Shown here: positions 12,609 through 63,460 of the stretch, in pieces
Layout: each line of letters begins with the position of its first letter
Numbering within the stretch: position 1 is the stretch's first letter
IMG/VR virus record: IMGVR_UViG_3300028920_000902
Coordinates: 12,298 to 76,297 of that record
From: a virus
Lineage: Duplodnaviria; Heunggongvirae; Uroviricota; Caudoviricetes
Reading direction: 5' to 3' (one strand)
DNA length: 64,000 bases
The notes under the pieces: generated by a model
What the model was told of the DNA's origin: nothing
What the model saw: the letters and a program-made list of their open reading frames with translations, nothing else
Databases searched by the model: none
Program-made: the position numbers and the translations under genes

Positions 12609-14223
12609 AATACCGCTGAGGAATTGGTCTGAGATTGAGTTTGAGCTTGCCAAGATTCGGGGCGAGCTTGATCGTCTTGGCGTGGCCTCGGAGCAGTCTT
12701 CCCGTGGCTGGTTCCAACAGTTGCACGTCAGAGACAGGGCACAGTTCCTTGGCGTTGCGGCAGGTGGATATCTCAGGCTCGATGCCAACAACTACCTTGA
12801 GCAAGTTCCCGCCGGAATAGGAGAAGCCAACACGGCGTCCAATGTTGGCGTGGGGGGCGTTGGGCTTTACAATGCCAAGGTCGGTGTTGACCTCCAGTTC
12901 AGAAACATCAACGCTGCTTCTGCCAGACTCTCGGTTGCGCTTGATGCGCCCAACAATGAGGTGGATTTGGATGTCGTCGAGGCCCAGATAAATCACGACA
13001 ACCTTGGCACTAGAACACATGACGGTGACACCTTGCAATTGGACGGAGTGACCAGCAACGGTGGAGCATTCAACTTTACCACTTCGGGCACGCTTACCTT
13101 TTCTAATACGGTGGCGCTGTCTACGTGTATTAATGCTGCTGGGGATACCGACAAGTTCCTTGTGTTGGATGGTGCCGACAACGTGGACTTCCGCACCGGC
13201 GCGGAGGTGCTGAGCGACATAGGTGGTGCTGCGGCTGTCCACACTCACGACGGCGATACGTTGCAGTTGGACGGGGTAAACAGCGACGGTGGGGCGTTCT
13301 CATTCAACACGACAGGTGCGGTGACGTTCAACCAAGACGTGAACACCCAGAATCTCGGAGTGACGGGCAACATCACGGTTACCGGAACGGTTGATGGTGT
13401 GGACGTTGCAGATCACCATGCCCGCCACGAAAACGGCGGTGCGGACGAGATAGATGTTGGCGGGCTGTCGGGAGAGTTGGCTGACGCGCAGCCGGTGGCT
13501 GTGAGCAAGAATAGCGGGGCCATCGTTGGAACGCGAAGCGAATTGAACTTCATTGAGGGCGCAAACATCACGCTGACTATCGCCGACGATGCTGGCAATG
13601 ATGAGGTGGACATTACCATAGCGGCGGCTGGGGGCGGAGCGCACGATTTGCTGAGTGCCACACACTCCGATACTGCTGCCGATGCAGTCACCCGTGGGTC
13701 GCTTATCTATGGTAACGCAACGCCCAAGTGGGATGAGTTGGTGGTTGGCGCGGCCAACTCCGTACTTGTTACCGATGGCACAGATGTGTCGTGGGACAAC
13801 ACGCCAACTATCGACGGCCTGACGATGGCTGGCGACATTGCGATGGGCGGCAACTCCATCACCGGAGTGAATCAGGTGGACGGGGTGGACGTGAGCGATC
13901 ATCACGCACGTCACGAGAACGGTGGGGCTGATGAGATAAGCGTGGCCGGATTGTCCGGTGTCCTTGCTGATGCACAGACGCCCGCCGCCCACGTCCACGA
14001 CGGTGACACGTTGGAACACGACGCTGTGAACAGCAACGGTGGTGACTTCGATTTCACGACTACTGGAGACATACGACACATTGTTGGTGTGGGAAATGCG
14101 TTTGTGTTGACCGACGTGGTTACGGACGATACGGACAAGCGACCGGCAATCAGGGCAGAGCAGTACGATTCCACGGGAGAACCGGAGGGGTTTACTGTCA
14201 TATATGTTGAGGGGAAGGCGTGA
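12595..14223 (+). CDS. tail fiber protein with internal sequence repeats
   Basis: Repeated modules HTHDGDTLQLDGVxSxGGAF (3 copies) and VDVxDHHARHENGGADEIxVxGLSG (2 copies), also visible as DNA repeats near nt 13018, 13246, 13996 and 13400, 13888. Confidence 0.7.
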   Translation: MTVNRIPLRNWSEIEFELAKIRGELDRLGVASEQSSRGWFQQLHVRDRAQFLGVAAGGYLRLDANNYLEQVPAGIGEANTASNVGVGGVGLYNAKVGVDLQFRNINAASARLSVALDAPNNEVDLDVVEAQINHDNLGTRTHDGDTLQLDGVTSNGGAFNFTTSGTLTFSNTVALSTCINAAGDTDKFLVLDGADNVDFRTGAEVLSDIGGAAAVHTHDGDTLQLDGVNSDGGAFSFNTTGAVTFNQDVNTQNLGVTGNITVTGTVDGVDVADHHARHENGGADEIDVGGLSGELADAQPVAVSKNSGAIVGTRSELNFIEGANITLTIADDAGNDEVDITIAAAGGGAHDLLSATHSDTAADAVTRGSLIYGNATPKWDELVVGAANSVLVTDGTDVSWDNTPTIDGLTMAGDIAMGGNSITGVNQVDGVDVSDHHARHENGGADEISVAGLSGVLADAQTPAAHVHDGDTLEHDAVNSNGGDFDFTTTGDIRHIVGVGNAFVLTDVVTDDTDKRPAIRAEQYDSTGEPEGFTVIYVEGKA

Positions 14224-16274
14224 GCAAAGTATCCATAATTATCCCCGGTCGATATGAGCGGTATTTCCAGCCCACGGTGGACTCTGTGTTGGAGTCTGCT
14301 GTTGGTGATGTGGAAGTCATCGCCATTGTGGACGAGCAGGAATGGGATGTACCGCTGCAATCTGATGATCCACGGGTGAAAATCATTCGCTTGGAGAAGG
14401 CCATTGGACAGCGGGCGGCGTACAACCTCGGCGTGCGGGAGTCAACGGGCGAATACGTGATGAAGATAGACGCCCACGCGCTACTCTCCAAGGGGTTCGA
14501 TGAGGAGCTGAAGAAGTGCTGTGGGGAGAAGGACGTGGTACTCCCCGAGATGCGGCGGCTGGATGTACACGAGTGGAAGCCGAAGCGCGGTGGGGAAACG
14601 GTACATATGTACTTTGGGCTGGATCTGTACTGCCACTATTGGCGCAAAGCGAACACCGAGGACTACCCAGAGGTAATGACAGGGCAGGGGTCATGCTGGT
14701 TCTGTCGGCGGGAGTGGAACGACCACATTGGGCTGCTCGATGAGGCGGTGGGGTCGTGGGGTAACGTCGGCATAGAGGTTTCTTTGCGGACATGGCTGTG
14801 TGGCGGCAGGCAAATCTGCTGCACCAAAGCGTGGCAGGCGCACTATTTCCGCAAGGACGATGGGGGGTTCCCGTATCATCTGACGGGCAGGGACGTTCAT
14901 AAGGCCCACAAGTACACATGGAATAACTACTACTTCAAGGACGATGCTTTCACGAATCAGACGCGGCCTTTCAGGTGGCTGATACAGAAGTTTGAGCCGC
15001 CGGGGTGGGAGGCATATCTGGTGGACTGCTTTGAGTCTCCGAGGGTGATAGTGTACTACACGGATTCGCAGCTTGTGGAACACCTGGCGGCAGCCGTGCG
15101 GAAACGCTTGAAGAAGGTGTGTGGGCCGATACCGATTGTGAGCGTGTCTCAGGAGCCGCTGGGGTTTGGCAAGAACGTGTGTGTGGGTGAACAGCCGCGC
15201 ATATACAAGAGCGTCTACGAGGCCATGCTGGCAGGCGTGAAGGCAACCCCGCCGGGAAGCATCGTGTATCTGGCTGAACACGATGTGTTCTACCACCCGT
15301 CACACTTCGCGTTTCTGCCGCCGGAGCGGGGGACGCTGTATTTCAATGAGAACCGCTACTACTACACACGGGGACACGGGAAATTTGAGAAGGCGCGTGG
15401 GAAGGTGGCGTTGTCTCAATGTGTGGCATGGCGCGAGGACTTGATACAGCACGCCGAGGAGCGGCTGGCGGTGGCGCCAGAGGACATTACCGAAAGCTTT
15501 TCCGCATGGCAGGAGCGGACTGCGCTGAAGACGGTTACGTTCTCATCGAACCGCCCGAACGTGGACGTCCTGCACGGGGCCAACCTGACCCTCAAGGGGC
15601 GGAAGAAACTGCGGTACATGCAGGGTGAGGGCGGCACGGTTCGCGACCTTCCGGGGTGGGGCAGGCCGCCACACTTCTGTTCTGTTGTGGGGTACTCGAC
15701 GGATGATTTGCACATTGTGCTGCACGAGAAATTTGAGCGGCTGCTGCCACAGGTGTCTCCCATACGGTGCCCGAAACTGAAGCGCGACTGGCTGCCGAAG
15801 ATGTTTGCAATGGCTGGCAAGCGGGGTGCGGAGGTGGGGGTGCGGGATGGTGCGTACTCGGAACTGATATGCCAAGCTGTTCGTGGGGAGCATATCTGCG
15901 TGGACATCTGGGACGAGTATTACCACTTCGACAAAGAATACGGCAGGAAGAACCTTGAGGCGTGCCGGGAAAGGCTGAAGCCGTATGGTGTGCGGTACAT
16001 AGAGAAGCCAAGCGTTGAGGCGGCGGCAGAGATAGAGGACGAGTCTTTGGACTACGTGTACGTCGATGCTGACCATCGGTTTGACTGGGTGATGGAAGAC
16101 TTGATAGCGTGGGGCCGGAAGGTGCGCCCCGGCGGTGTGATTGCGGGGCATGACTACTATCGGTTCCGCAACGCGGGCGTGGTGGATGCGGTGGACTTGT
16201 ACACTCGGATGCACGATGTGCGCGAGTGGTTTGTGACCGACGAGAAGGAATCTAGCTTTTTCTGGGTGAAATAA
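14220..16274 (+). CDS. bifunctional glycosyltransferase family 2 / class I SAM methyltransferase (Methyltransf_24-like) fusion
   Basis: N-terminal GT-A signature SIIIPGRYERYF...IAIVDEQ...YVMKIDAHA. C-terminal DYVYVDADHRFDWVMEDLIAWGRKVRPGGVIAGHDY, typical of TylF/Methyltransf_24-like methyltransferases. Confidence 0.75.
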   Translation: MSKVSIIIPGRYERYFQPTVDSVLESAVGDVEVIAIVDEQEWDVPLQSDDPRVKIIRLEKAIGQRAAYNLGVRESTGEYVMKIDAHALLSKGFDEELKKCCGEKDVVLPEMRRLDVHEWKPKRGGETVHMYFGLDLYCHYWRKANTEDYPEVMTGQGSCWFCRREWNDHIGLLDEAVGSWGNVGIEVSLRTWLCGGRQICCTKAWQAHYFRKDDGGFPYHLTGRDVHKAHKYTWNNYYFKDDAFTNQTRPFRWLIQKFEPPGWEAYLVDCFESPRVIVYYTDSQLVEHLAAAVRKRLKKVCGPIPIVSVSQEPLGFGKNVCVGEQPRIYKSVYEAMLAGVKATPPGSIVYLAEHDVFYHPSHFAFLPPERGTLYFNENRYYYTRGHGKFEKARGKVALSQCVAWREDLIQHAEERLAVAPEDITESFSAWQERTALKTVTFSSNRPNVDVLHGANLTLKGRKKLRYMQGEGGTVRDLPGWGRPPHFCSVVGYSTDDLHIVLHEKFERLLPQVSPIRCPKLKRDWLPKMFAMAGKRGAEVGVRDGAYSELICQAVRGEHICVDIWDEYYHFDKEYGRKNLEACRERLKPYGVRYIEKPSVEAAAEIEDESLDYVYVDADHRFDWVMEDLIAWGRKVRPGGVIAGHDYYRFRNAGVVDAVDLYTRMHDVREWFVTDEKESSFFWVK

Positions 16275-18766
16275 TGGCAACCGACTATCTATTTGCAACA
16301 TTCAAACGGGGGACGCAGGAGACTGCGCCGGGCAAAGAGCATCTGGGGATGTGGGACCGGATGCTTGTTGACTGGATAGATCCCGATGTGTATCCCGTGA
16401 AGCACTCGGAGTGGATGCAGAAGTGCTTTTTGATTCTGCGGGTGAAGCGGGATCTGCGGGACATGCTGGTGCAGGGGTGCCAAGCCACCCACGACACCAT
16501 AGAGGACACGTTTAAGGTCGAGGACTACCGGGCGCGGCAGTTGTCGATAGACGTGGACACGGTGAAGGCTGCTCTGTCCATGTCGGATCTGACCGACAAG
16601 ATGGCGAGCAAAGACGCCATCCAGATAGTGGACGCGACGAGCCTCGGTGAGAGCCTGTTCAAGAGTTCCACGCTCATTGCCCCGACGGCGCGTGACGTGA
16701 TGGCGGTTACCAATGGTAATTACACCATAGGCTCCGGTGGTGGGGATAGCTATGCCACCTGGGCAGCCTTCGCCGCCGACATCGGAAGTCCGCTCGATGG
16801 CAACCTAACAGGCACACAGACCACAGATGTGACGGAGACGGCGCAATCAACGACCACCGAAAGCCTCAACGCGCACAAGTTCAAGTGTACATCCGACAGT
16901 TCGCCCGAAGGAAATCCAACTGCGGGACACAAAACCACCCTCGGCGATCACCATTGGATGCAGTTTGAGTGTGAGGGTGGCGGCGAGGTTGAGGTATGTG
17001 ATCTCAGGTGTGACCATGCTTCTGCGTCCGGTGGCAACCGGCACTGTATTGCATGGATAACCGTTACCACTGGCTGGACTGGATATTTCCATGACAACAT
17101 GCTGGACAAGGCCGGTGGGCGCGGGTTTGGTATACACGATGCCGATGCTCAACCGACGTGTTATGTGTGGAATAATGTCATATGGGGCGGCCGAGAGGGT
17201 GCTGGTGATGCTGTAGGTCTGAAGTCACACACTACCCTGCACGGTGGGTTCGAGATTGTTGAAAACAACACCATCTACGACATGGAAACCAGCGGTGTTG
17301 ACGCCCAGGGTGACGATCCAACCTACCGCAACAACGCCGTGTATGACAACGGCACCGACTTTGCGAACATCGGCGCTGCCACCGGCTACAACAACGCCGA
17401 CAGCGACGGCACGGCAGCGGATGTCAACTGGAGCGACGGCAGCGACAACCTGACCAACCAGACCGCCGCAGATGATTTCGTCTCCACCGATGACACGAAC
17501 GCCAGCTTCCTCGACATTGACCCGACAGGTGCTCTCAATGGCGCTGGAAACAGTACCATTTTGGGCGACAACACCGCTGGTATTCGTGGTAGGGCACGCC
17601 CGAATAACGATGGTGGCTATTCCATCGGTGCGGCGGAGGCAGACTACGGCAGCTCGTCGGGCAGCGCTTCGGGTTCGGCTTCGGGCAGCGCTAGTGGCAG
17701 TGCAAGCGGATCTGCCTCTGGCAGCGCTAGTGGCAGCGCGTCAGGCAGCGCCAGCGGCAGCGCATCGGGGAGTGCCAGCGGGTCGGCCAGCGGGTCGGCC
17801 AGCGGGTCAGCTAGTGGATCGGCCAGTGGGTCGGCTTCAGCCTCCGGCGGCTCTGGGTCGGCTTCGGAATCAGCCAGCGAATCGGCCTCGGAATCTGCGT
17901 CCGGGTCTGCCAGCGAGTCGGCATCACCCTCCCCTGAGAACATCATTAACATTGGTGGCGGTGATGCGAATGCTAACGCCGCAACAACTATCCGCATGTG
18001 GACTGCTGCCGACACCACCACGCGCACAGGCACCAAGCGGGTGGAGTTGGATGATACTACCATAAAGTTCCTGCTGAATACGGCCATCGGCGATGTAAAC
18101 CCCGACACTCTGCTGCATGTGTATGGTGGGTCGGCGGGAGCAGTTGCTGCTGTTGCGAACACCGTTCTTGCGGTGGAGGATGATACCACCGCCCTGATTA
18201 GTGTGCTTGCGCCGGATGCCAATTATTCCGGACTTGTCTTCGGCGCTGCCAGTGACAATGATGCGGCCACAATGTTTTTGGACTACACCAACACAGTGGT
18301 TGAACACCGGGTTGGCGGCACGGGTGGAACTTTGCACTATCAGTGGCACCTGTCGGGCATTCATAGTTTCTATGGTTCACAGATATTCTACGAGTCTACG
18401 GGTGTGGGTGCCGAGGAGGTTTTGCGTATTGCTGGAAACTTCATTACCATAAACGAGGACAGCAAAGACATAGATTTTCGTGTAGAAACAAATGGTGATA
18501 CCCACATGCTGTTCTCCGACGGGGGCAACGACAAGCTCTGCGTGTCTACCAATACGGGGCTGGCGGCAAAGTTGACCATCGTGCAGGACGATGCTTCGGG
18601 CGAGTCGTGCCTGTCGCTGGATCAGGATGACGAGTCGGAGGGCTTTATAGATTTCGTGGGAAGCGACACGGGGTCATGTCCTACGGCAACCACCAATAGC
18701 ACCGCATCTGTACGGGTAGAATTGAATGGAACCGTGTACCGCGTCCCCTTGTTTGACGATGCTTAA
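16274..18766 (+). CDS. tailspike-like protein (beta-helix/depolymerase-like N-terminal part, (SGSA)n linker, C-terminal domain)
   Basis: TAATG overlap with the upstream gene. NNxI-type beta-helix repeats (NNVIWGG, ENNTIYD, RNNAVYD). ~75-residue SGSASGSA run. Confidence 0.7.
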   Translation: MATDYLFATFKRGTQETAPGKEHLGMWDRMLVDWIDPDVYPVKHSEWMQKCFLILRVKRDLRDMLVQGCQATHDTIEDTFKVEDYRARQLSIDVDTVKAALSMSDLTDKMASKDAIQIVDATSLGESLFKSSTLIAPTARDVMAVTNGNYTIGSGGGDSYATWAAFAADIGSPLDGNLTGTQTTDVTETAQSTTTESLNAHKFKCTSDSSPEGNPTAGHKTTLGDHHWMQFECEGGGEVEVCDLRCDHASASGGNRHCIAWITVTTGWTGYFHDNMLDKAGGRGFGIHDADAQPTCYVWNNVIWGGREGAGDAVGLKSHTTLHGGFEIVENNTIYDMETSGVDAQGDDPTYRNNAVYDNGTDFANIGAATGYNNADSDGTAADVNWSDGSDNLTNQTAADDFVSTDDTNASFLDIDPTGALNGAGNSTILGDNTAGIRGRARPNNDGGYSIGAAEADYGSSSGSASGSASGSASGSASGSASGSASGSASGSASGSASGSASGSASGSASGSASGSASGSASASGGSGSASESASESASESASGSASESASPSPENIINIGGGDANANAATTIRMWTAADTTTRTGTKRVELDDTTIKFLLNTAIGDVNPDTLLHVYGGSAGAVAAVANTVLAVEDDTTALISVLAPDANYSGLVFGAASDNDAATMFLDYTNTVVEHRVGGTGGTLHYQWHLSGIHSFYGSQIFYESTGVGAEEVLRIAGNFITINEDSKDIDFRVETNGDTHMLFSDGGNDKLCVSTNTGLAAKLTIVQDDASGESCLSLDQDDESEGFIDFVGSDTGSCPTATTNSTASVRVELNGTVYRVPLFDDA
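17650..17925 (+). repeat. 12-bp-period coding tandem repeat encoding (Ser-Gly-Ser-Ala)n / SESA linker
   Basis: Repeated tcgggcagcgcc / agcgggtcggcc units seen directly in the DNA. Confidence 0.85.
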
Positions 18767-18806
18767 GATATGCACACCTCTGTACAAGAAGGCACACCCC
18801 CGTATG

Positions 18807-19274
18807 CGACGGGCGGTGAAACGAACGGGGTTGCGATGGGAAACGTGTACGGGGCCGCACATCTGGAGGAACAGGAATAACCTGGTTGGAGGTGCAGAGT
18901 GGTATCTGTTCTGGGATGCTGACATTGTGCCTGCCGATCCCCGGAGGGCCATACGACAGCTTCTCAACAGGAAGCGGTCAATAGTCGGTGGTGCCTACAT
19001 ACAGAGGGGGGCGGAGCACTATTGCGCTGCGGTAAACGACAGGGGGCATGTGTCACAGAACAGCACGGGCATTCATTCTGTTGATTGGGTGGGGGCTGGT
19101 TTTTTGTTGGTGCATCAGAGCGTTTTTGATACGTGTCCGAAGCCGTGGTTTCGGCACGAGTTTGTGGGAGACGATCAGACGCCAGAGGACATAGGGTTTT
19201 GCATGAATGCTCGCCGCAACGGGTTTAAGGTGTATGTGGACTGTGATGTGAAACTGGAACACATAGGAGGATAA
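18807..19274 (+). CDS. truncated GT2-like glycosyltransferase (C-terminal half only; possible pseudogene or split gene)
   Basis: DxD-like FWDADIVP plus downstream EDIGFCMNARRNGFKVYVDCDVKLEHIG, typical of a GT2 C-terminal half. At most ~55 aa precede the DAD motif, so the N-terminal Rossmann half is missing. Confidence 0.45.
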   Translation, partial: RRAVKRTGLRWETCTGPHIWRNRNNLVGGAEWYLFWDADIVPADPRRAIRQLLNRKRSIVGGAYIQRGAEHYCAAVNDRGHVSQNSTGIHSVDWVGAGFLLVHQSVFDTCPKPWFRHEFVGDDQTPEDIGFCMNARRNGFKVYVDCDVKLEHIGG

Positions 19275-19449: not shown

Positions 19450-20397
19450 ATGGCAGTCAATGTATGGAGCGCAGCGGGAGCGGGCAACTGGAGCGCAGGG
19501 GGCAACTGGAGCCTCGGCCATGCCCCGCAGGCCGGTGAGGACGTGCTGTTCGACAACACAAGCGTGCAGAACTGCACCGTGGACGTAGCCGACTTTTTGA
19601 CTATTCTCGGGGATTTGACAGTAGCAGACACATACACGGGCACTGTCTCAGCAGCGGCGGCCAAAGTGTTTGTTGTTGGCGGAGATGTGTACTTGGGCAC
19701 CGGAGTAACGTGGAGCTGGAATACTGCCGCCACACTACGCCTCAAGCCAGTCGGGGCGCAGACTATCGAAACAAATGGCAACGGCGGGCACACCATTACT
19801 GGTGTGGCTGGTGCTGGTGGTTCGATGCAATTAGTAGATGCGTTGAACATGACAACTTGCAACATGACCGGATTTCCGTGGGACCAAAACGGGCAAGACA
19901 TTATCGCGTCTGGTAATTTGTCTATTACTGCCGCAGGGTGTACGTGGGATGGTGACATCAGTTGTTCTGGTATGTTCGTGAGCCTCAACAGTAGCAACGT
20001 CACTGGTTCGCTCACATTGTCTTCTACTGCATCAATCACCGTTTCTGGGTCGGTGACCGTTGCGCGGCTGATATTGTCTGCCGGAGAAACGTACACCATT
20101 TGGAGTGGTGCCAATGTACTGACCATTGGATCATACACAGCGGGCGACTGGGACGGAGCGACACTACAGGGTAACGCGGGCTTCGATTGGAACATGTCGG
20201 CCCCTGCTGGTATGGTCGTATCCAACATGGCGGTGGCAGACAGCAACAACTCGGGTGCGGCTATTGACGCCTCTGACGGTACGAACACAGACAATGGCGA
20301 CAACACGGGGTGGAATTTTGTCGCTCCCGCTCCCCCCGCAACCGCCAGCACCCCCAAACAGTCAAAGTGCAGCATTGGCATAGGAATTGGCATATGA
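19450..20397 (+). CDS. tail fiber/adhesin-like protein (Gly/Ser/Thr-rich beta-helical, 315 aa)
   Basis: N-terminal WSAAGAGNWSAGGNWSLGHAPQAGEDVLFDN motif typical of beta-helical adhesins and fibers; S/T-rich. Confidence 0.55.
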   Translation: MAVNVWSAAGAGNWSAGGNWSLGHAPQAGEDVLFDNTSVQNCTVDVADFLTILGDLTVADTYTGTVSAAAAKVFVVGGDVYLGTGVTWSWNTAATLRLKPVGAQTIETNGNGGHTITGVAGAGGSMQLVDALNMTTCNMTGFPWDQNGQDIIASGNLSITAAGCTWDGDISCSGMFVSLNSSNVTGSLTLSSTASITVSGSVTVARLILSAGETYTIWSGANVLTIGSYTAGDWDGATLQGNAGFDWNMSAPAGMVVSNMAVADSNNSGAAIDASDGTNTDNGDNTGWNFVAPAPPATASTPKQSKCSIGIGIGI

Positions 20398-48116: not shown

Positions 48117-49012
48117 TTCTCATCCATGTGAGTCGCCGGAGAACAACGGGGAAAGACAAGTTTCTGGGTCGCCTGTCTGACGAAATTGAGCGGCAGGGTC
48201 ACAAGGTTGTACGCTCTCCCAAGGAAAAGCACGACATCTATTTGGACAGAATATCGTTCAAGTGGGATACGGGGGCGCCACGGATTCTGCGGTTGAACGG
48301 GGTACACATAAACTCAGACCGTCCGATGAAGAAGCCCAATGACGAAATACGGCATCACGCCAAGCGGGCTGATGGGATAGTGTATCAGTCGCAGTTTTGC
48401 AAACAGATGAACGAGCGGTATGCCACGTATGGGCTGAAAATACCCAATCGTGTGATATTCAACGGCGCTCCGGTGGTGAGGCGGCGCTCAAAGCTGGCAA
48501 CACTCTATGACCGTACTTTTGTGGCATGTGCCAGATGGCGCCCACACAAGCGGCTGAATGACATTGTTGAGGCATTTGGACTAGCTAACATTCCCAATGC
48601 AGAGCTGGTTGTGTTAGGTAAGGTTACTCCTCGTTGTGTGCCGAATGTGCGTTTTATGGGGACGGTGAGCCAAGATGTGGTTGAGGCGCTGATGACCAAT
48701 GCGGTGGCGTCAATACACATTGCGTATCTTGATTGGTGTCCAAACAGCGTTGTCGAGGCACAGATGTGTGGGTGTCCGGTGATAACAAACAACGTGGGGG
48801 GCACGCGGGAAATTGCCCCAGAGCATGTGGTGGAAATCGACCCGGAATACTACGGCAAATCCGTGCGTTTGTATCACCCCCCATTGGTGGATCGACACAA
48901 GATTGCGAGTGCCATGTGGGCCTCGCTGAAGTGGGAACCCCCACAGACAGATCACATAGACATACGGAACGTGGCGAAACAGTATATTGAGTTCATGGAG
49001 ACGTTGCTATGA
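48110..49012 (+). CDS. GT4-type (GT-B) glycosyltransferase
   Basis: DWCPNSVVEAQMCGCPVI. Confidence 0.65.
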   Translation: MVVLIHVSRRRTTGKDKFLGRLSDEIERQGHKVVRSPKEKHDIYLDRISFKWDTGAPRILRLNGVHINSDRPMKKPNDEIRHHAKRADGIVYQSQFCKQMNERYATYGLKIPNRVIFNGAPVVRRRSKLATLYDRTFVACARWRPHKRLNDIVEAFGLANIPNAELVVLGKVTPRCVPNVRFMGTVSQDVVEALMTNAVASIHIAYLDWCPNSVVEAQMCGCPVITNNVGGTREIAPEHVVEIDPEYYGKSVRLYHPPLVDRHKIASAMWASLKWEPPQTDHIDIRNVAKQYIEFMETLL

Positions 49013-49674
49013 GGTGTGCCGTTCTGGGAAGGGGAAAGAGCCTTGCGCTGTGGAACGCCATTCCGGCGAGGCCGTTGTTTGACCTGATCTATCTTGTGAA
49101 TGACTGTTCCGAGGAGTCGCGGCGCATAGGGTTGACTGCGGAAGACGGAACGATAGAGCACGTATTCGGCCGTAAAAACGCAACGGTGCTAACCAGGGAG
49201 ACATACGAGAGGCTGAATGTCAAAACGGCATGGGTGAATGCGCTTGGGGTGGACAATATACGGAACATGAAGCGGATGCTGCAATCCATACCCCAGCAGA
49301 CAAAGGTTCACACTCGCCCCCCGTGTATGTACGACCGGGGGTATTTGCCGATAGGCTGGAAGAAGCTGCTTCGTGGGGTTACGTCGGCGGCGAGGCGGTC
49401 AGACAACGGCAATGCGTGGCCCACGACCGGTCTGTATGCCATAGGGCTTATGCTGGCGAAGAATAGCCCGAGTGAGGTGTGGTTGTTCGGGTTTGATTTT
49501 TACCGCGACAAGTACCTGATTAAGGCGAATCGCCCCCACCAGAACCAGGGGGCTGCCAAGGTGCAAATGATGTATCGGTATTTGCAGAAGCTTGTGGATG
49601 AATTTGCGGAAACGCAGTTCTATTCGGCAACGGATTTGGGTATGGAGGGTGAGAATTGGCACTTAATCCGGTGA
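49009..49674 (+). CDS. CstII/Maf-like (GT42/DUF115-type) nonulosonic-acid transferase, paralog 1
   Basis: AVLGRGKSL (cf. AGNGPSL) and TGLYAIGLMLAKNSPSEVWLFGFDFY (cf. SGVYMCAVAIALGYKEIYLSGIDFY of CstII). Confidence 0.55.
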   Translation: MRCAVLGRGKSLALWNAIPARPLFDLIYLVNDCSEESRRIGLTAEDGTIEHVFGRKNATVLTRETYERLNVKTAWVNALGVDNIRNMKRMLQSIPQQTKVHTRPPCMYDRGYLPIGWKKLLRGVTSAARRSDNGNAWPTTGLYAIGLMLAKNSPSEVWLFGFDFYRDKYLIKANRPHQNQGAAKVQMMYRYLQKLVDEFAETQFYSATDLGMEGENWHLIR

Positions 49675-50210
49675 AGCTCATTTCTGTTGCCAAAGTTGTG
49701 GACAGTCAGTATCGCAACGGCAAGTTTAATCGCATGGACATGATTATGCGGCTGCTGTGTGCCGAAGAGGGGGGCAAATGGTGGAAGCAGTATCGGAAGA
49801 TGCAGCATATTCGCATCAACAAGATACGCAAGATTCGCCCAAACAAGTGGCCGTCGGGATATGAAAAGAGGCGCGTCAAGGACTTTCTGGCGCTGCTGGA
49901 GTCGTTTGCCGAGAAGGGGTATGACATGTCGGTGAAGGGCATACGGCTTGACCGGGACTTGGAAATTGTGAACGGGTCGCACCGCCTTGCGTGCTGTATA
50001 CTGAATGGAATAAGTGAGATACCAGTACAATGGCCTCCGGAGAGTACAAAGGTGCGACGGCCATATGCGCTGAAATGGTTCAAGAAGCACGGGTTTTCAA
50101 AGCGAGTTCTTAGGGGGCTTGAGGCGCGGCGCCGAAAGCTGTTGAAGGATTTGGGACTCAAAGACAGGACAACAGATGAGTATTTTGAAAACAACATCGG
50201 GTGGGGCTAG
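49656..50210 (+). CDS. ParB/sulfiredoxin-fold domain protein, paralog 1
   Basis: GYDMSVKGIRLDRDLEIVNGSHRLACCILNGISEIPV matches the ParB N-terminal G-x-HR-x-A core. Confidence 0.55.
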   Translation: MALNPVKLISVAKVVDSQYRNGKFNRMDMIMRLLCAEEGGKWWKQYRKMQHIRINKIRKIRPNKWPSGYEKRRVKDFLALLESFAEKGYDMSVKGIRLDRDLEIVNGSHRLACCILNGISEIPVQWPPESTKVRRPYALKWFKKHGFSKRVLRGLEARRRKLLKDLGLKDRTTDEYFENNIGWG

Positions 50211-51048
50211 GGTTATTTGTGAGTGCTGCTGCAACCATCAGGGCGATTTGGACATTGCCAGAGAGATGGTGGTGGTTGCTGCAACGTATTGCAAGGTAGA
50301 CTACGTTAAATTCCAGAAACGATGCGTGTGGGACTTGCTGACCGATGAGCAGTATGTGCGTCCATACGATGGGCCGAATTCCTTTGGAGCAACATATGGG
50401 GAGCATCGTGAGGCGCTGGAATTTTCCATGCCGGAGCATTATACCCTACGCGACCTGTGCCACCAGCATGGTGTAGGGTATGGGTGTTCTGTGTGGGACA
50501 AGACCTCTGCGCGGCAGTTGGTGGAGATGAGGCCAGACCTGTTGAAGATACCGTCTGCGAAGAACCACGATATTGACATGATGGCATGGATACTTGAGCG
50601 ATACGAGGGGCCGCTGCATGTGTCCTGTGGCATGATGACCAAGGACGAACGGGACAATTTGCGCCGCCTTACGAGTGAGTGGAAGGGGCGCATTGTGGTG
50701 TACCATTGTACGTCGGCATATCCGGTGGAATTTGAGGACGTGTGCTTGGCTGAGATTGACCTGTTGCGGCGAGAGTGGTCACATGCGGCGGCCGTGGGGT
50801 TCTCCGGTCACCATCGTGGCATTGCGGTGGATATTGCGGCGGTGGAGCGTGGGGCACAATGGGTTGAGCGGCATTTCACGCTGGACAGGACGTGGAAGGG
50901 CACAGACCACGCGGCGTCGCTGGAGCCTGACGGCATGAAGCGGCTGGTGCGGGACTTGCGGAATGTGCGGGTGGCAAGCGGCGTGAAGGAGAAGGACATC
51001 CTCGATTGCGAAGTCCCCAACCGGAGGAAGCTCAAGGGTGAAGACTAG
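50176..51048 (+). CDS. neuB: N-acetylneuraminate (nonulosonic acid) synthase NeuB/PseI/LegI family
   Basis: NHQGDLDIAREMVVVAATYCKVDYVKFQ ... GFSGHHRGIAVDIAAVERGAQWVERHFTLD matches NeuB TIM-barrel motifs; no C-terminal SAF domain. Confidence 0.75.
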   Translation: MSILKTTSGGARVICECCCNHQGDLDIAREMVVVAATYCKVDYVKFQKRCVWDLLTDEQYVRPYDGPNSFGATYGEHREALEFSMPEHYTLRDLCHQHGVGYGCSVWDKTSARQLVEMRPDLLKIPSAKNHDIDMMAWILERYEGPLHVSCGMMTKDERDNLRRLTSEWKGRIVVYHCTSAYPVEFEDVCLAEIDLLRREWSHAAAVGFSGHHRGIAVDIAAVERGAQWVERHFTLDRTWKGTDHAASLEPDGMKRLVRDLRNVRVASGVKEKDILDCEVPNRRKLKGED

Positions 51049-51700
51049 AGCGCTGATACCAATTCGGGCGGGGAGTAAGGGCATTCCCAACAAGAACATG
51101 AAGGAGATGTGCGGCAAGCCCCTATGCTATTGGGTTATTGATGCGGCTTTGGGGGCCAAATCTGTGGACGAGGTGTGGGTGAGTACCGACTATGACGAAG
51201 ACATTGTTGGGCACATCGAGCCATGTCTTGGTGTGCGAGTTTTGTATCGTCCCGCATGGCTTGCTACCGATACCGCAACCTCGGACGATGTTCTGCGGCA
51301 CTTCTGTTGGTCTGAGTGTGAGCCGGATGACGTAGTGGTGATGCTTCAGGCGACAAGCCCGCTGACTACTGGCAAGGATATAGACGGGGCTGTTGATAAG
51401 AGTACAAAGCACGACAGTCTTCTGTCTGTTGTAAATCCGAGGTGCTGTTTCTATTGGGACGAGGATGGTTGTCCAATTAATTATAATCCAAGCACACGAC
51501 CGTTTCGTGGCGAGATTAAAAAGATATGCATGGAAAACGGGGCTATATACATAACTAGCGCGGGCGCTTGTATGAGGGGCGAACCCCGTATCTGGGGTGA
51601 TACAGGTATGTATATGATGCCCCCAGAGACAGCCACAGAGATAGACACCCCCGAAGATTGGGACATCGTGGAGAAGCTGCTTGAAGCTCGCCTTTCGTAG
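51038..51700 (+). CDS. neuA: acylneuraminate cytidylyltransferase (CMP-nonulosonic acid synthetase) family
   Basis: ALIPIRAGSKGIPNKN canonical N-terminus, MLQATSPL, and a conserved C-terminal region; GTG start with AGGAAG RBS. Confidence 0.8.
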   Translation: MKTRALIPIRAGSKGIPNKNMKEMCGKPLCYWVIDAALGAKSVDEVWVSTDYDEDIVGHIEPCLGVRVLYRPAWLATDTATSDDVLRHFCWSECEPDDVVVMLQATSPLTTGKDIDGAVDKSTKHDSLLSVVNPRCCFYWDEDGCPINYNPSTRPFRGEIKKICMENGAIYITSAGACMRGEPRIWGDTGMYMMPPETATEIDTPEDWDIVEKLLEARLS

Positions 51701-51704
51701 ATGT

Positions 51705-59775: not shown

Positions 59776-60339
59776 ATGGCACTATTTAAGCATTTCTTTA
59801 AGAACCGTGATGGTCTGTCGTTTGTACAAATTGGCGCAAATGATGGGGTGGACTTTGTTCGTGAGCGCGTGTTGACCTTCGGGTGGCGTGGGGTTTTCGT
59901 TGAGCCGATTCCACACATATTTAAACGGCTGAAAGAAACCTATCGGGGAGTTGGGGGGCTGGCGTTTGAGAATGTTGCTATTGCCGAGTCCGCCGGAACC
60001 AAGGACTTTCATGTGTGTGATGGACACGAGGTGTGTAGTGGCCTTGAGATTGTTCATCCCAAGGTAAGTCGTCATCCGTTTCACACTATTCGGGTTAAGT
60101 GCATTACAATTTCCCAGTTGTTTGAGCGTTACGGCATAGAGCGCCTTGATGTGTTGGTAATTGACACCGAGGGGTATGATGGCAAGATAATCAAGAGCAT
60201 GGATTTCAACGTAAGACCCAAGGTGCTGATATATGAAAGCAAGGATCTGCCTGATAATGATGAGGTGAGGGCGCTGCTTAAGGGGCAGGGGTACAAATTT
60301 CGTCCATTCAGTAACAACACGGTGGCATATCTAAAATGA
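59776..60339 (+). CDS. FkbM-family methyltransferase (second copy)
   Basis: FVQIGANDG...VFVEP...LDVLVIDTEGYD. Confidence 0.65.
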   Translation: MALFKHFFKNRDGLSFVQIGANDGVDFVRERVLTFGWRGVFVEPIPHIFKRLKETYRGVGGLAFENVAIAESAGTKDFHVCDGHEVCSGLEIVHPKVSRHPFHTIRVKCITISQLFERYGIERLDVLVIDTEGYDGKIIKSMDFNVRPKVLIYESKDLPDNDEVRALLKGQGYKFRPFSNNTVAYLK

Positions 60340-60965
60340 AAACATTGGCAATATATGGGTGTGGGTATAGTCTGAACGAATTGTCTGATGAGCAGTGGGA
60401 TGAGCTTCGTCAGTTTGATTCTATTGGTGTGAACTGGTTTGTGTTTCAGCGGTGGATCGAGCCTACTTACATGCTGGTTGGAGACATTCGGCACGACAGG
60501 AAGATAGCCAAGTTGGGACATACGCTTGAAGAAGCATTTGAGATATACGTCAAAGAGGCTTCTGCGCCGTGCTACAAGAACACAATTTTTGTGGCACGAG
60601 ATTATCAAATGCCGATGCTTGGAAACCTGAGAATGTGTGAATATGTCCCAGATCGGGAGTGGAGGGCATCTAGCATAACCCAATGTCTTCATTGGGCGGT
60701 CAAAAATGGATATGAGCGAGCATTGGTTGCTGGAGTGGACTTGTATGACTATCGTTTTTTCTTCTTGGAACACGAACAAGTCAGGAACTATGGGTTGGTT
60801 GGGGGCGGTTGGGCAAAGAGAAAAATTCACGGTCGCCATCAGGCATATAACAAAATGAAGAAGTGGTTTAAGAGTGGGGTGTGCAAGATTCCGATTTACT
60901 GCTACAATCCCAAGTCACTCATGTTTGATTTTCCGGGGACAAAATCATGGTTGCAGCAATCCTGA
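60336..60965 (+). CDS. CstII/Maf-like nonulosonic-acid transferase, paralog 2
   Basis: AIYGCGYSL and SSITQCLHWAVKNGYERALVAGVDLYDY. Confidence 0.5.
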   Translation: MKTLAIYGCGYSLNELSDEQWDELRQFDSIGVNWFVFQRWIEPTYMLVGDIRHDRKIAKLGHTLEEAFEIYVKEASAPCYKNTIFVARDYQMPMLGNLRMCEYVPDREWRASSITQCLHWAVKNGYERALVAGVDLYDYRFFFLEHEQVRNYGLVGGGWAKRKIHGRHQAYNKMKKWFKSGVCKIPIYCYNPKSLMFDFPGTKSWLQQS

Positions 60966-61618
60966 TTGGTCGCAAGGGGTCGAAGGGGTTTCCCGGCAAG
61001 AACACCCATGTGGTCTGCGGTAGGCCAATGTGTGAGTGGCCTCTGCTTGCGGCTCAGAAGATGGTGGACAAGATATACTACTCCACCGACGATGAAGATG
61101 TACACGAGATTGCAAAAGCCTATGGGGAGAGGTTGCATCGCCCCCCGGAACTGGCAACTGATGAGGCTCTGGGCGAGGATGTATACCAGCATTGTGCGGC
61201 GCGAGTGGTTGAGCCAATACTGGTGTTGTTGATGGCCAACGCCCCGACAGTTGCAGATTTCCACATTGCTGACGGGTTGCGGGCACTTCAGGATGGATAT
61301 GCCTCAGCTTGTACGGTGTCGAAGTACAACATGTTTCACCCAACAAGAGCAAGGGTGCGCGGGGAAAGCCTGTGGCATTACCATCATGGCGGCGCGAGTT
61401 GTGATCGTAATTCTGCCGGTGATGCTTGGTTCTATGATTGTGGGTGTGCTGTGGTGAGAAGGGAGAACATGAGTATGCTTCACAGTGGGCTTCCCCCACA
61501 GCGGTGGCTCCATGTGCCGTGCTATGGCATTGAGAACGAGGCGGGGATAGACGTGGATTACGAATGGCAACTTGGGCAGGTTGAGTGGTGGCTGAGGAGG
61601 TATGCAAAATGCGCGTAG
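60947..61618 (+). CDS. cytidylyltransferase, CMP-nonulosonic acid/CMP-KDO synthetase family (second copy)
   Basis: AAILIGRKGSKGFPGKN N-terminal motif. Confidence 0.75.
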   Translation: MVAAILIGRKGSKGFPGKNTHVVCGRPMCEWPLLAAQKMVDKIYYSTDDEDVHEIAKAYGERLHRPPELATDEALGEDVYQHCAARVVEPILVLLMANAPTVADFHIADGLRALQDGYASACTVSKYNMFHPTRARVRGESLWHYHHGGASCDRNSAGDAWFYDCGCAVVRRENMSMLHSGLPPQRWLHVPCYGIENEAGIDVDYEWQLGQVEWWLRRYAKCA

Positions 61619-62946
61619 TTCTCATTTCTCCACAATACCGAATACTGCATTCTCCAGTAAGTGATTTGTCCAAGAATGTTCATAGGAGGGCGCAGCCCAA
61701 TTTGGCGCTTGCCATACTTGCCACTACCCTGAATCGTGCGGGGTATGAGGTTTTGTATTTGGACAGCGTAATTGAGGGCATTGATCAAACCATTCGCTTC
61801 GATGAGGAAACAGACTATTATGGACTGATGCCAGACGGTATCCGGCGCCGGGTGGAAGAATTCAGTCCAGACTTGATTGCCATTACTTGTCTGACAACCA
61901 GCCAATACCCCCTTGTACGGGCTGTGTATTTTGAATTGCTTTCGCTTGGTATTCCCATTATCATTGGGGGAAACCATGCCAGCCTCAATGCTCGTGATGT
62001 CAGGGAGCTTGGGTTTCATTCCGTTGTGTGCGGGGAGGCGGATCAGAAGATTCTGGAGGTTGTTGACCGACTGAACAGTTTGCCCGACATTGTTCACCTT
62101 GGGCGGTTAGACGATTTGGACAAAAGCCCCCAGATAGATTGGTCACTTTTGCCAATGGAAAAGTATTGGACAAAAGCTCTTCCCCAAAATCCATTTCCCA
62201 AGAGTCGAAAGACCATCCTCTATGAGACATCGCGGGGCTGCCCGGAACATTGTGTTTTCTGTTCTACGGCGAACCACTTCGGCCACAAGTTTCGTCCGAA
62301 ATCGGCACGGCGCGTGGTGCAAGATATTACGGAGGCGGTTCGCACTACGGGGATTGAGGAGGTGCAGTTTTGTGATGACAGCATGGGGGTAAATCGCACT
62401 CGGTTCATGGACATATGCGAGGGGCTAAAGCCTCTTGGCATACATCTGTGCAACCCTTCTGGAATCAGGTTCTACATAAAGAAAGAGTCTGAGCTGCGAG
62501 AAACATTTGCCACGATGCGGGATGCGGGGTTTTACCAGATGACATTTGCTGTTGAAAGCGGCAACGAATATATCCTCAATACGGTAATCAAGAAGCGCCT
62601 TGATCTTGAATGGACACGGAAAGCGATAGGCGTTGCAAAAGACTACTTCAAAGTACACGCATTTTTCATCATTGGATTGCCGGGGGAAACCGAAGAGCAA
62701 ATCAACGATACCTTGCGCTACGCGAAAGATATCAAGGTGGACAGCTATTCGCTGTCGCTGGCGCAACCGTTTCCATCCACAGAGCTGTGGAGGATTTGCC
62801 GTCGCGGGGGGTGGATGGTTCCGGGCACCAAAGAGTCAGACATGTTGTTGGGAAAACAGGTGATTCGCAGGGACGATGGTTTGGACTTGGTATCTATCGC
62901 GGAGGACGCTCTTGAACGACTGGCTGGTAATAGCAACAGGCCCTAG
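61609..62946 (+). CDS. B12-binding-domain radical SAM enzyme
   Basis: CPEHCVFC (CxxxCxxC) radical SAM cluster motif after an N-terminal B12-binding-like Rossmann region. Confidence 0.8.
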   Translation: MRVVLISPQYRILHSPVSDLSKNVHRRAQPNLALAILATTLNRAGYEVLYLDSVIEGIDQTIRFDEETDYYGLMPDGIRRRVEEFSPDLIAITCLTTSQYPLVRAVYFELLSLGIPIIIGGNHASLNARDVRELGFHSVVCGEADQKILEVVDRLNSLPDIVHLGRLDDLDKSPQIDWSLLPMEKYWTKALPQNPFPKSRKTILYETSRGCPEHCVFCSTANHFGHKFRPKSARRVVQDITEAVRTTGIEEVQFCDDSMGVNRTRFMDICEGLKPLGIHLCNPSGIRFYIKKESELRETFATMRDAGFYQMTFAVESGNEYILNTVIKKRLDLEWTRKAIGVAKDYFKVHAFFIIGLPGETEEQINDTLRYAKDIKVDSYSLSLAQPFPSTELWRICRRGGWMVPGTKESDMLLGKQVIRRDDGLDLVSIAEDALERLAGNSNRP

Positions 62947-63460
62947 TGTTGGGGCTTATGCTGACGTAATTCGTGCTTTTGCAGATGGGAAAACCACCAT
63001 AGGTGTACACCACTTGGCGGGACGTTTTGTTCCCGACTATCACCTGTTTGTTTCAAAGAAGCGATACAAAAAGTACGGTAAGTATGTGAATCCCAAAAGC
63101 ACCCTGGTTTTGACCAGCAAGATGGGTGGCCATTTTGATGTGGAGAACGAGTATCCATCTTCTGTGGGGTCGATTGAATTTTTTGACGGCCGCGTAGTAA
63201 GCAGGGGGGCGTCCGGTGGGGTGCTGGCTGCTGCATATGCAATCATGTTGGGGGCGCAGCGGGTGTTTATCGCCGGAATGGACGGATATAGTGATGGGGC
63301 AGGTCACCATTACAAGGAGAAAGACAATTCTTGGAGTCGGCTCATGGAACACGAGGCTGCGACGCCAATGATTCTCAGGGATTTGAATAAGATTGTGCCG
63401 GTGACAATTATTACGCCGACAGTATACCAAGAATACTACGTGGGATTTGAACACAATTAA
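62912..63460 (+). CDS. CstII/Maf-like nonulosonic-acid transferase, paralog 3
   Basis: LVIATGPSV and SGGVLAAAYAIMLGAQRVFIAGMDGY; probable TTG start 5 nt after GGAGGA. Confidence 0.5.
   Translation: MNDWLVIATGPSVGAYADVIRAFADGKTTIGVHHLAGRFVPDYHLFVSKKRYKKYGKYVNPKSTLVLTSKMGGHFDVENEYPSSVGSIEFFDGRVVSRGASGGVLAAAYAIMLGAQRVFIAGMDGYSDGAGHHYKEKDNSWSRLMEHEAATPMILRDLNKIVPVTIITPTVYQEYYVGFEHN

What the first reader, a model, noticed from the sequence alone, without database searches (positions are those of the whole stretch)
17650..17925. Ser-rich (SGSA)n linker in the tailspike is a candidate substrate for the phage's own Maf/CstII-like nonulosonic-acid transferases
Maf-type enzymes attach pseudaminic or legionaminic acids to Ser/Thr of flagellins. 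This phage encodes three CstII/Maf-like paralogs (49009, 60336, 62912) plus NeuB/NeuA-like enzymes. Its tailspike has a ~75-residue Ser-Gly-Ser-Ala run, and the fiber at 19450-20397 is S/T-rich. Self-glycosylation of tail proteins with sialic-acid-like sugars would be a new virion modification system for tailed phages.
Basis: inference. Interest (0 to 1): 0.75.

Follow-up and report, generated by a model that had tools for sequence, protein, structure and literature searches.

The report
Phage mucin-like linker beside its glycosyltransferase

Summary

The stronger partner is the gene immediately upstream (14220-16274, TAATG stop/start overlap). It is a three-part enzyme whose N-terminal domain matches polypeptide GalNAc-transferases (GT27) in sequence and predicted fold, including the DxH and Gal/GalNAc-T motifs. 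It also carries a C-terminal methyltransferase domain.

In 95 dereplicated viral and metagenomic loci, relatives of this enzyme (28-90% identity) nearly always lie beside a same-strand (S-x)n run of 50-1000 residues. The proteins carrying the runs are otherwise unrelated, often LamG or CBM lectin-like. Relatives lacking the GT domain have no run (0 of 7). Conversely, long runs in IMG/VR almost always have this gene nearby. A 37-kb phage has the pair but no nonulosonic-acid genes.

Verdict: self-glycosylation is well supported comparatively, but by a ppGalNAc-T-like enzyme. A nonulosonic-acid role is possible and unsupported. Nothing is shown biochemically.

The parts
17648..17935 (+). Alternating-serine (S-x)n run, 96 aa: (SGSA)n followed by (SESA)n and ending SPSP; the mucin-like linker
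   Evidence: 50% Ser, both Ser codon boxes used, the only such run in the window
16274..18766 (+). 830-aa tail-region protein. The N-domain (aa 1-458) is shared with P0001-P0003, the Ser run follows, and the C-domain (aa 555-830) is an orphan
   Evidence: No Pfam, PHROG or PDB match. Residues 145-375 are replaced by a diverged block in a near-identical phage
14220..16274 (+). 684-aa three-domain enzyme: ppGalNAc-T-like GT-A domain (aa 5-about 260), conserved middle domain (aa about 270-505, invariant E353-H354-D355) and Methyltransf_24 domain (aa 538-646). Its stop overlaps the start of the Ser-run gene (TAATG)
18726..19274 (+). Small ORF (156-182 aa) just downstream. It matches phrog_1574 and has DAD and ED..F motifs reminiscent of a mini GT-A; a possible second glycosyltransferase, not established
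   Evidence: Homologues lie in 4 other GT27-like loci
49009..49674 (+). MptE-like/Maf/CstII-like paralog 1 (221 aa); no demonstrated link to the Ser run
   Evidence: family HMM E 2e-9
50176..51048 (+). NeuB-family nonulosonic-acid synthase (290 aa, no C-terminal SAF domain)
51038..51700 (+). CMP-sugar cytidylyltransferase (CTP_transf_3; best NCBIfam match PseF, below cutoff)
60336..60965 (+). MptE-like/Maf/CstII-like paralog 2 (209 aa), directly upstream of the second cytidylyltransferase
60947..61618 (+). Second CMP-sugar cytidylyltransferase
62876..63460 (+). MptE-like/Maf/CstII-like paralog 3 (194 aa; the called start is probably 62912). AF2 model has pLDDT 92

Best explanation
The (SGSA)n/(SESA)n run is a mucin-like stalk or linker between two globular parts of a tail-region protein. 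It is most likely O-glycosylated on its serines in the host cytoplasm by the enzyme encoded immediately upstream. That enzyme's N-terminal domain has the sequence motifs and predicted fold of polypeptide GalNAc-transferases, the enzymes that start mucin-type O-glycosylation on Ser/Thr-rich repeats. I infer that it puts the first sugar (probably a HexNAc from a UDP-sugar) on Ser. The conserved middle domain may add a second sugar, and the C-terminal methyltransferase may methylate the glycan. Dense glycosylation would stiffen and extend the linker and shield it from proteases, so that the attached domain is held away from the virion. Shown here: the run, the enzyme's resemblance to GT27, and the conserved two-way gene coupling. 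Inferred: that the run is the substrate, the identity of the sugar, the roles of the middle and methyltransferase domains, and the biological benefit.
For: (1) The enzyme. A profile of the family hits ppGalNAc-T1, T2, T4, T9, T10 and T12 as its top 8 PDB matches (E 1e-11 to 2e-7) over aa 5-219/242. The DxH motif (kIDAH against T1 LDAH), the Gal/GalNAc-T motif (WGnvgiEvSlRtWlCGG against WGGENLEISFRIWQCGG) and the third metal-ligand His (aHyFRk against GHVFRK) are conserved. Ordinary GT2 structures match only the first 90 residues or so. The AF2 model (pLDDT 90) gives ppGalNAc-Ts as all top 50 Foldseek PDB hits, E about 1e-13. (2) Coupling. The stop and start codons overlap (TAATG). Of 33 dereplicated relatives at 45% identity or more with upstream flank, 23 have a same-strand Ser run ending a median 65 nt upstream and 3 have it just downstream. 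All 11 with at least 3 kb on both flanks have a run within 3 kb. Of distant relatives (28-44% identity), 28 of 36 have one. (3) The run-bearing proteins are otherwise unrelated: the N-domain of this window, LamG in 8 of 31, CBM96, CBM11, pentaxin-like and a tail-completion fusion. (4) Internal control: relatives lacking the GT domain have no run (0 of 7). (5) Reverse test: a (SESA)4-type DNA pattern hits only 53 stretches in 2.9 million IMG/VR contigs. Of about 20 genuine long runs, at least 16 have this GT gene in the locus or contig. (6) Protein-level selection on Ser. (7) By established knowledge, alternating-Ser repeats are the O-glycosylation substrates of bacterial serine-rich-repeat adhesins, and PDB 5hea (GalT1 of that pathway) is also a hit.
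Against: There is no biochemical evidence of any modification. ppGalNAc-Ts usually prefer Thr, whereas these runs are almost Thr-free. The lectin domain and membrane anchor of true GT27 enzymes are absent. The middle domain has no recognised homologue. Gene adjacency could instead reflect a shared insertion hot-spot in the tail module. In 7 of 33 close relatives no run was seen in the flank available, which was mostly short. In this window the run is internal and downstream of the enzyme gene, unlike the commonest layout, where it is C-terminal and upstream.
Confidence: 0.6

Rival explanations
1. One reading: the three Maf/CstII-like paralogs transfer a phage-made nonulosonic acid (from NeuB plus a CMP-synthetase) directly onto serines of the run, as Maf does on flagellin.
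Confidence: 0.1
2. Two-step model: the GT27-like enzyme starts the glycan on Ser, and enzymes of the distant island (GT4, GT2, Maf/CstII-like, FkbM methyltransferases) extend or cap it, for example with a nonulosonic acid.
For: This phage has both systems. CstII-type enzymes act on glycans rather than on protein. Structural neighbours of the paralog include ST6GALNAC2, which sialylates GalNAc-Ser/Thr.
Against: There is no co-occurrence evidence. Other phages carry the GT27-like module alone, and the fold similarity to ST6GALNAC2 is generic for sialyltransferases.
Confidence: 0.15
3. The run is just an unmodified flexible low-complexity spacer, and the neighbouring glycosyltransferase acts on something else, such as host envelope glycans, another virion protein or DNA.
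For: Ser/Gly/Ala-rich linkers are common and flexible without modification. No modification has been shown. The run length varies by one repeat unit between close variants, as expected of a simple spacer.
Against: This does not explain why such runs are very rare in viral contigs yet almost always lie next to this particular enzyme family, on unrelated carrier proteins, down to about 30% enzyme identity. It also does not explain why the enzyme resembles peptide O-glycosyltransferases specifically.
Confidence: 0.15

Closest known systems
Polypeptide N-acetylgalactosaminyltransferases (CAZy GT27) and mucin-type O-glycosylation of eukaryotes
   Same: A GT-A catalytic domain with the DxH motif, the Gal/GalNAc-T motif and the third His ligand; the best sequence and fold matches; a putative acceptor that is a long Ser-rich repeat, as in mucins.
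   Different: No ricin-type lectin domain, no membrane anchor and no secretory-pathway setting. The domain is fused to an unknown middle domain and a methyltransferase. The acceptor is Ser-only rather than Thr/Ser/Pro. The donor sugar and stereochemistry are unknown.
Serine-rich-repeat glycoproteins of Gram-positive bacteria (GspB, Fap1, SraP) and their cytoplasmic glycosyltransferases (established knowledge)
   Same: Hundreds of alternating-Ser residues (SASESAST-type) forming a stalk that displays a binding domain; cytoplasmic O-glycosylation by dedicated, genetically linked enzymes; multi-domain glycosyltransferases in the pathway, with GalT1 (5hea) a weak PDB hit.
   Different: The initiating enzyme there is the GT4 GtfA/GtfB pair. 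Those proteins use aSec export and an LPXTG anchor. Here the carrier proteins are phage virion-module proteins and the linked enzyme is GT27-like.
Mycobacteriophage virion glycosylation (Freeman et al. 2023, Cell Host Microbe; cited in PMC12619734 and PMC10877033)
   Same: Phage-encoded glycosyltransferases modify the phage's own structural proteins.
   Different: In that case glycans sit on the C-termini of the capsid and tail-tube subunits. Here the target is a dedicated long repeat domain on accessory or tail-region proteins, and the enzyme family has no match in 50,697 deposited phage genomes. I could not read the original paper.
Maf flagellin glycosyltransferases and Campylobacter CstI/CstII (GT42); Pfam PF01973 and PF06002
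   Same: The three window paralogs share the N-terminal GxGxS motif and the G-x-D-x-Y nucleotide-binding motif and have the same fold. They are encoded beside NeuB and CMP-synthetase genes.
   Different: They are much shorter (190-220 aa), with no acceptor-binding or lid domains. The window proteins do not reach Pfam thresholds themselves. Activity and acceptor are unknown.

Membership tests
GT27 polypeptide GalNAc-transferase | GT-A catalytic domain with a DxH metal-binding motif | tested here: met
   D84-A85-H86 is invariant in 63 homologues and aligns with the LDAH of GalNAc-T1
GT27 polypeptide GalNAc-transferase | Gal/GalNAc-T motif (WGGENxExSxRxWxCGG) and a downstream His metal ligand (GHVFR) | tested here: met
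   WGNVGIEVSLRTWLCGG and QAHYFR align with the T1 motifs. W180, G181, E186, W192, G196, H208, F210 and R211 are invariant
GT27 polypeptide GalNAc-transferase | Catalytic-domain fold closest to ppGalNAc-Ts | tested here: met
   All top 50 Foldseek PDB hits are ppGalNAc-Ts, E about 1e-13, about 310 aligned columns
GT27 polypeptide GalNAc-transferase | C-terminal ricin-type lectin domain and type II membrane anchor | tested here: not met
   The protein starts directly at GT-A strand 1. The C-terminal parts are an unknown domain plus Methyltransf_24
GT27 polypeptide GalNAc-transferase | Transfers GalNAc from UDP-GalNAc to peptide Ser/Thr with retention | not testable with these tools
   Needs an enzyme assay
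Maf / GT42 CstII (Pfam MptE-like PF01973, CST-I PF06002) | Match to the family profile | tested here: inconclusive
   The window proteins give no Pfam hit at E<=0.01. However, 65 of 102 members of their family hit PF01973 and 7 hit PF06002, and the family profile hits CstI and CstII at 2e-7 to 5e-6
Maf / GT42 CstII (Pfam MptE-like PF01973, CST-I PF06002) | Sialyltransferase-type nucleotide-binding fold | tested here: met
Maf / GT42 CstII (Pfam MptE-like PF01973, CST-I PF06002) | Acceptor-recognition domains (Maf flagellin-binding regions; CstII lid) and catalytic base | tested here: not met
   The proteins are only 190-220 aa and cover the core alone. The catalytic His was not examined
Nonulosonic-acid biosynthesis pathway (Neu, Pse or Leg) | Condensing synthase (NeuB family) and CMP-activating enzyme | tested here: met
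   NeuB scores 210 bits. Two CTP_transf_3 genes are present. All fall below the NCBIfam equivalog cutoffs, so the sugar is undetermined
Nonulosonic-acid biosynthesis pathway (Neu, Pse or Leg) | Upstream enzymes making the hexosamine precursor (NeuC, or PseB/C/H/G, or LegB/C/H/G) | tested here: not met
   None was recognised among 30 island ORFs by Pfam, nor by NCBIfam for the 10 ORFs nearest the NeuB, cytidylyltransferase and paralog genes. Several ORFs remain unknown
Serine-rich-repeat glycoprotein system | Long alternating-Ser repeat region | tested here: met
   96 aa here; 50-1000 aa in related loci
Serine-rich-repeat glycoprotein system | GtfA/GtfB initiating pair, aSec export, LPXTG anchor | tested here: not met
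   No such genes lie next to the run; the linked enzyme is GT27-like. GT4-like genes exist only in the distant island
Phage tailspike | Parallel beta-helix or other known receptor-binding/depolymerase fold, attached to the tail | tested here: inconclusive
   No Pfam, PHROG or PDB match, and no structure prediction was run on it. Support comes only from its position at the distal end of the tail module and a mosaic central block

The most novel reading that the evidence does not exclude
This phage builds a capped, mucin-type O-glycan on its own tail protein. The ppGalNAc-T-like enzyme would start the glycan on the Ser run, and the Maf/CstII-like paralogs would add a nonulosonic acid made by the phage's own NeuB and CMP-synthetases. 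The result would be a sialyl-Tn-like structure on a bacteriophage virion.
Probability: 0.12. Interest if true: 0.9.

Novelty: new variant of a known kind. Interest (0 to 1): 0.7.

Why it matters
If the inference holds, a large group of uncultured phages carries a self-contained kit for making mucin-like glycoprotein stalks. The group comprises more than 200 enzyme clusters at 90% identity, with no match to the enzyme's glycosyltransferase or middle domains among 50,697 deposited phage genomes. The kit is a repeat domain that can be attached to many different lectin-like or tail proteins, plus a dedicated enzyme related to those that start mucin glycosylation in animals.

That would extend virion glycosylation well beyond mycobacteriophages. 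It would give a prokaryotic-virus relative of GT27 enzymes for evolutionary and biotechnological study, for example cytoplasmic O-glycosylation of designed Ser repeats. It would also bear on how phage fibres resist proteases, evade recognition or stick to surfaces. In addition, it shows that the large nonulosonic-acid island in this phage still lacks an identified target.

Tried and rejected
1. Direct Pfam, NCBIfam and PDB searches of the three paralogs gave nothing or only E 0.17. A family profile and a structure model were needed.
3. The 830-aa protein, its N-domain profile and its C-domain have no match in INPHARED phages, Pfam, PHROGs or PDB. Its fold stays unknown because both structure-prediction jobs went to the enzymes.
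4. Megablast of 25 kb against deposited phages found nothing.
5. A NeuB-based scan of viral contigs found no close relative. Scans with the broad paralog alignments failed for lack of conserved stretches. The narrower alignment gave 3 loci.
6. I tested whether island genes accompany other GT27-like loci. None lies within 6 kb, but the flanks are too short to settle co-occurrence on long contigs.
7. hhalign of the enzyme's middle domain against its own GT domain showed no relationship, so 'second GT-A domain' rests only on the secondary-structure pattern and an invariant EHD motif.
8. The scan of bacterial and archaeal genomes found a single 5.8-kb MAG contig, so there is no host assignment. 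The window has no tRNA genes.
9. I could not obtain Freeman et al. 2023 itself. Full-text searches for phage serine-rich repeats with glycosyltransferases, or for phage ppGalNAc-T, found nothing relevant.
Full report
**1. The observation**

The window is part of a 76-kb phage contig (ENA ERZ27252253 k141_3896401). It encodes a prim-pol/helicase, small and large terminase subunits, a DUF1353 tail-chaperone-like protein and a tail-region block. It has no relative among deposited phage genomes.

ORF 16274..18766 (+, 830 aa) contains the run at aa 459-554, which is nt 17648-17935. The run is 96 residues: 48 Ser, 22 Ala, 20 Gly, 4 Glu and 2 Pro, with Ser at every second position.

- Ser makes up 50% of the run and 6.4% of the rest of the protein.
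- It is the only genuine run of this kind in all six frames of the 64-kb window.
- The serines use both codon boxes (AGY 20, TCN 28), and Tandem Repeats Finder sees only 64-86% regular DNA repeats. The periodicity is therefore maintained at protein level.
- A near-identical phage fragment (L005) differs in the run by a single SASE unit.

**2. The carrier protein**

The N-terminal 458 residues have three relatives.

- P0001 (1277 aa) has the same N-domain, then a Ser run of about 170-190 residues of the (SESASP)n type, then an unrelated 650-aa C-terminal part.
- P0002 and P0003 (480 aa) are the N-domain alone.

Neither the N- nor the C-domain matches anything in Pfam, PHROGs or the PDB, so 'tailspike' is not demonstrated. 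Two things speak for a host-recognition role. The gene sits at the distal end of the tail module. And between the window and the near-identical L005 phage, residues 145-375 are replaced by a strongly diverged block while the flanks stay almost identical. The neighbouring ORF 19450..20397 is 21% Ser+Thr with no repeat run.

**3. The nonulosonic-acid island and the three paralogs**

From about 44 kb to 63.5 kb the + strand carries a dense glycosylation island:

- a rhamnosyltransferase-like gene, a GT9-like gene, a GT2 and six GT1/GT4-like genes;
- two FkbM methyltransferases and a B12-radical-SAM enzyme;
- NeuB (50176..51048, 210 bits, no SAF domain);
- two CMP-sugar cytidylyltransferases (51038..51700 and 60947..61618).

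NCBIfam scores are below every equivalog cutoff, so the sugar cannot be named, and no precursor-pathway enzyme was recognised.

The three paralogs (49009, 60336, 62876/62912) share a GxGxS N-terminus and an AGxDxY motif but hit no Pfam or NCBIfam model themselves. Further tests place them in a known superfamily:

- A profile of the paralogs and close relatives hits CstII at E 2e-6 and CstI at 6.5e-3, over the CMP-binding GIDFY region.
- An exhaustive search found 358 relatives. Of 102 aligned members, 65 hit PF01973 (MptE-like, the former MAF_flag10 family) and 7 hit CST-I.
- The deep profile hits CstI at 1.9e-7, CstII at 4.9e-7 and MptE at 1e-4.

The proteins are minimal cores of 190-220 aa, and the same fold also serves pyrophosphokinases, so the activity is inferred from context only.

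**4. What turned up next to the run**

The gene directly upstream (14220..16274, 684 aa) ends in TAA overlapping the ATG of the Ser-run gene (TAATG). Pfam sees Glycos_transf_2 (aa 5-170) and Methyltransf_24 (aa 538-646).

A family profile searched against the PDB gives polypeptide GalNAc-transferases as the eight best hits (E 1.1e-11 to 1.9e-7). They align over aa 5-219/242, whereas ordinary GT2 enzymes match only the first 90 residues or so.

The alignment shows three conserved features, all invariant in 63 homologues:

| Feature | Phage enzyme | GalNAc-T1 |
|---|---|---|
| DxH motif | KIDAH | LDAH |
| Gal/GalNAc-T motif | WGNVGIEVSLRTWLCGG | WGGENLEISFRIWQCGG |
| Third metal-ligand His | AHYFRK | GHVFRK |

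The AF2 model (pLDDT 90) returns ppGalNAc-Ts as all top 50 Foldseek PDB hits, at E about 1e-13.

The middle domain (aa about 270-505) is conserved, with an invariant E353-H354-D355 after a beta-strand. It matches nothing known and is not detectably related to the first domain.

**5. The pairing is conserved, in both directions**

In P0001's phage, a 37-kb siphovirus-like contig, a 70%-identical enzyme gene lies immediately upstream of P0001.

Scans of IMG/VR and JGI metagenomes with the enzyme returned about 113 loci at 28-83% identity. A six-frame scan for Ser runs shows long same-strand (S-x)n runs (SESASESAS, SPSASPSLS or SASISESES types, 50-1000 aa) beside the gene in the great majority. 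After dereplication to 95 groups:

| Group of relatives | Result |
|---|---|
| At least 45% identity, with upstream flank (33) | 23 have a run ending a median 65 nt upstream; 3 have it just downstream (including this window) |
| Remaining 7 of those 33 | No run seen; flanks mostly short or missing |
| At least 45% identity, at least 3 kb on both sides (11) | All 11 have a run within 3 kb |
| 28-44% identity (36) | 28 have a run within 3 kb |
| Relatives lacking the GT domain (7) | None has a run |

The carrier proteins are otherwise unrelated. Their N-terminal parts include LamG (8 of 31), CBM96, CBM11, pentaxin-like and DUF2341 domains. In the 37-kb phage a second carrier joins a CBM96/DNRLRE-like domain through a 200-residue run to a C-terminal part that I judge, by eye only, to resemble a tail-completion protein.

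In the reverse test, a degenerate (SESA)4 DNA pattern matches only 53 stretches in 2.9 million viral contigs. Of about 20 that are genuine long runs, at least 16 have this enzyme gene in the same locus or contig.

The one hit in 185,579 species genomes is a 5.8-kb contig in a Gemmatimonadota MAG. It again has a 431-residue run ending 56 nt upstream of the enzyme gene.

The enzyme family has at least 212 clusters at 90% identity, all from metagenomes. No deposited phage genome matches its GT or middle domain.

**6. Is the island linked to the run?**

No evidence for a link was found.

- The 37-kb phage, of which 31 kb was examined, has the enzyme and two Ser-run proteins but no NeuB, cytidylyltransferase or Maf-like gene.
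- No island gene lies within 6 kb of any other locus of the family.
- A contig that shares the end of the island in synteny (L121) has no Ser run in 17 kb.

This does not exclude that, in this phage, island enzymes extend or cap a glycan started on the run.

**7. Mechanism proposed**

Shown: the run, the ppGalNAc-T-like enzyme and their conserved coupling.

Inferred: the enzyme O-glycosylates the run's serines in the cytoplasm. The middle domain and the methyltransferase elaborate the glycan. The dense glycan turns the run into a stiff, protease-resistant, mucin-like stalk that displays the attached domain.

The closest functional parallels are:

- eukaryotic mucins;
- serine-rich-repeat adhesins of Gram-positive bacteria (established knowledge; GalT1 of that pathway is a weak PDB hit);
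- glycosylated linkers of secreted glycoside hydrolases (established knowledge).

Phage self-glycosylation as such is already known from mycobacteriophages. I found no description of this module in full-text searches.

**8. Verdict**

My confidence in each reading:

| Reading | Confidence |
|---|---|
| Run and the GT27-like gene form a conserved module | about 0.95 |
| Run is glycosylated by the adjacent enzyme | about 0.6 |
| Direct Maf-type nonulosonic-acid transfer to the run | about 0.1 |
| Island extends or caps the glycan | about 0.15 |
| Unmodified spacer | about 0.15 |

Novelty: a new variant of a known kind, namely virion protein glycosylation and serine-repeat O-glycosylation.

Noticed in passing
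window 7096-12369 (+), aa 482-629: The 1757-aa protein in the tail module carries a GGDEF (diguanylate cyclase) domain (Pfam E 3e-13). Several PHROGs of unknown function match the same region. A GGDEF domain in a giant structural-module protein is unusual.
   Followed up: no
L009, L010, L020, L022, L024, L025, L030, L032, L036-L038, L044, L051, L065, L072, L077, L078 (C-termini of the Ser-run ORFs just upstream of the GT gene): In the 46-83%-identity group the Ser-run proteins end in a conserved tail of about 22 residues after the run, consensus A-M-P-I-I-S-S-x-G-I-H-S-x-x-x-G-G-x-I-I-N-G. Distant relatives end in SPSPSFP(D/F) or in DKY repeats. This could be a virion-anchoring or enzyme-recognition peptide. 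The window protein lacks it.
   Followed up: partly
window 16706-17398 (aa 145-375 of the 830-aa ORF) against L005 1391-3877: Between two otherwise near-identical phages this central block of the N-domain is replaced by a strongly diverged sequence (most of 151 aa differences), while the flanks, the Ser run and the C-domain are conserved. It looks like cassette exchange in a host-recognition domain.
   Followed up: partly
L001 1330-2973: In the 37-kb phage a second Ser-run protein joins a CBM96/DNRLRE-like N-domain through a 200-residue (SESA)n run to a C-terminal part that looks, by eye only, like a tail-completion or neck protein. This suggests a lectin-like domain displayed from the virion on a Ser stalk.
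   Followed up: partly
window 12595-14223 (+): The 542-aa protein has internal repeats (HDGDTLQLDGVxSxGGAFxF three times; DHHARHENGGADEIxVxGLSGxLADAQ twice) and no database match. It is probably a fibre-type protein.
   Followed up: no
window 58873-63460 and L121 1-7228: The end of the island (GT1, FkbM methyltransferase, MptE-like, cytidylyltransferase, MptE-like, B12-radical-SAM, MptE-like) is syntenic in another viral contig from the same IMG sample series. The radical-SAM enzyme is 79% identical. The island is therefore a conserved unit and not a one-off.
   Followed up: partly
window 50176-51048: The NeuB homologue is 290 aa and lacks the C-terminal SAF/antifreeze-like domain of canonical NeuB, PseI and LegI. 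No precursor-pathway enzymes were recognised nearby, and three adjacent ORFs of about 300 aa (51681-54311) have no family match.
   Followed up: no
L048, L050, L053, L054, L057, L061, L064: A sub-family has only the middle domain plus the methyltransferase (query aa 275-684), without the GT27-like domain, and never has a Ser run nearby. The middle and methyltransferase unit therefore also works in another context.
   Followed up: partly
window 18726-19274: The small ORF after the Ser-run gene matches phrog_1574 and has homologues (28-31% identity) in four other loci of the GT27-like family. By eye it carries DAD and ED..F motifs like a minimal GT-A glycosyltransferase.
   Followed up: partly
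L175 (JBDGYW010000451.1): The only hit among 185,579 species genomes is a 5.8-kb contig binned into a Gemmatimonadota MAG. It carries the same Ser-run plus enzyme pair and is either a weak host hint or a binning artefact.
   Followed up: no
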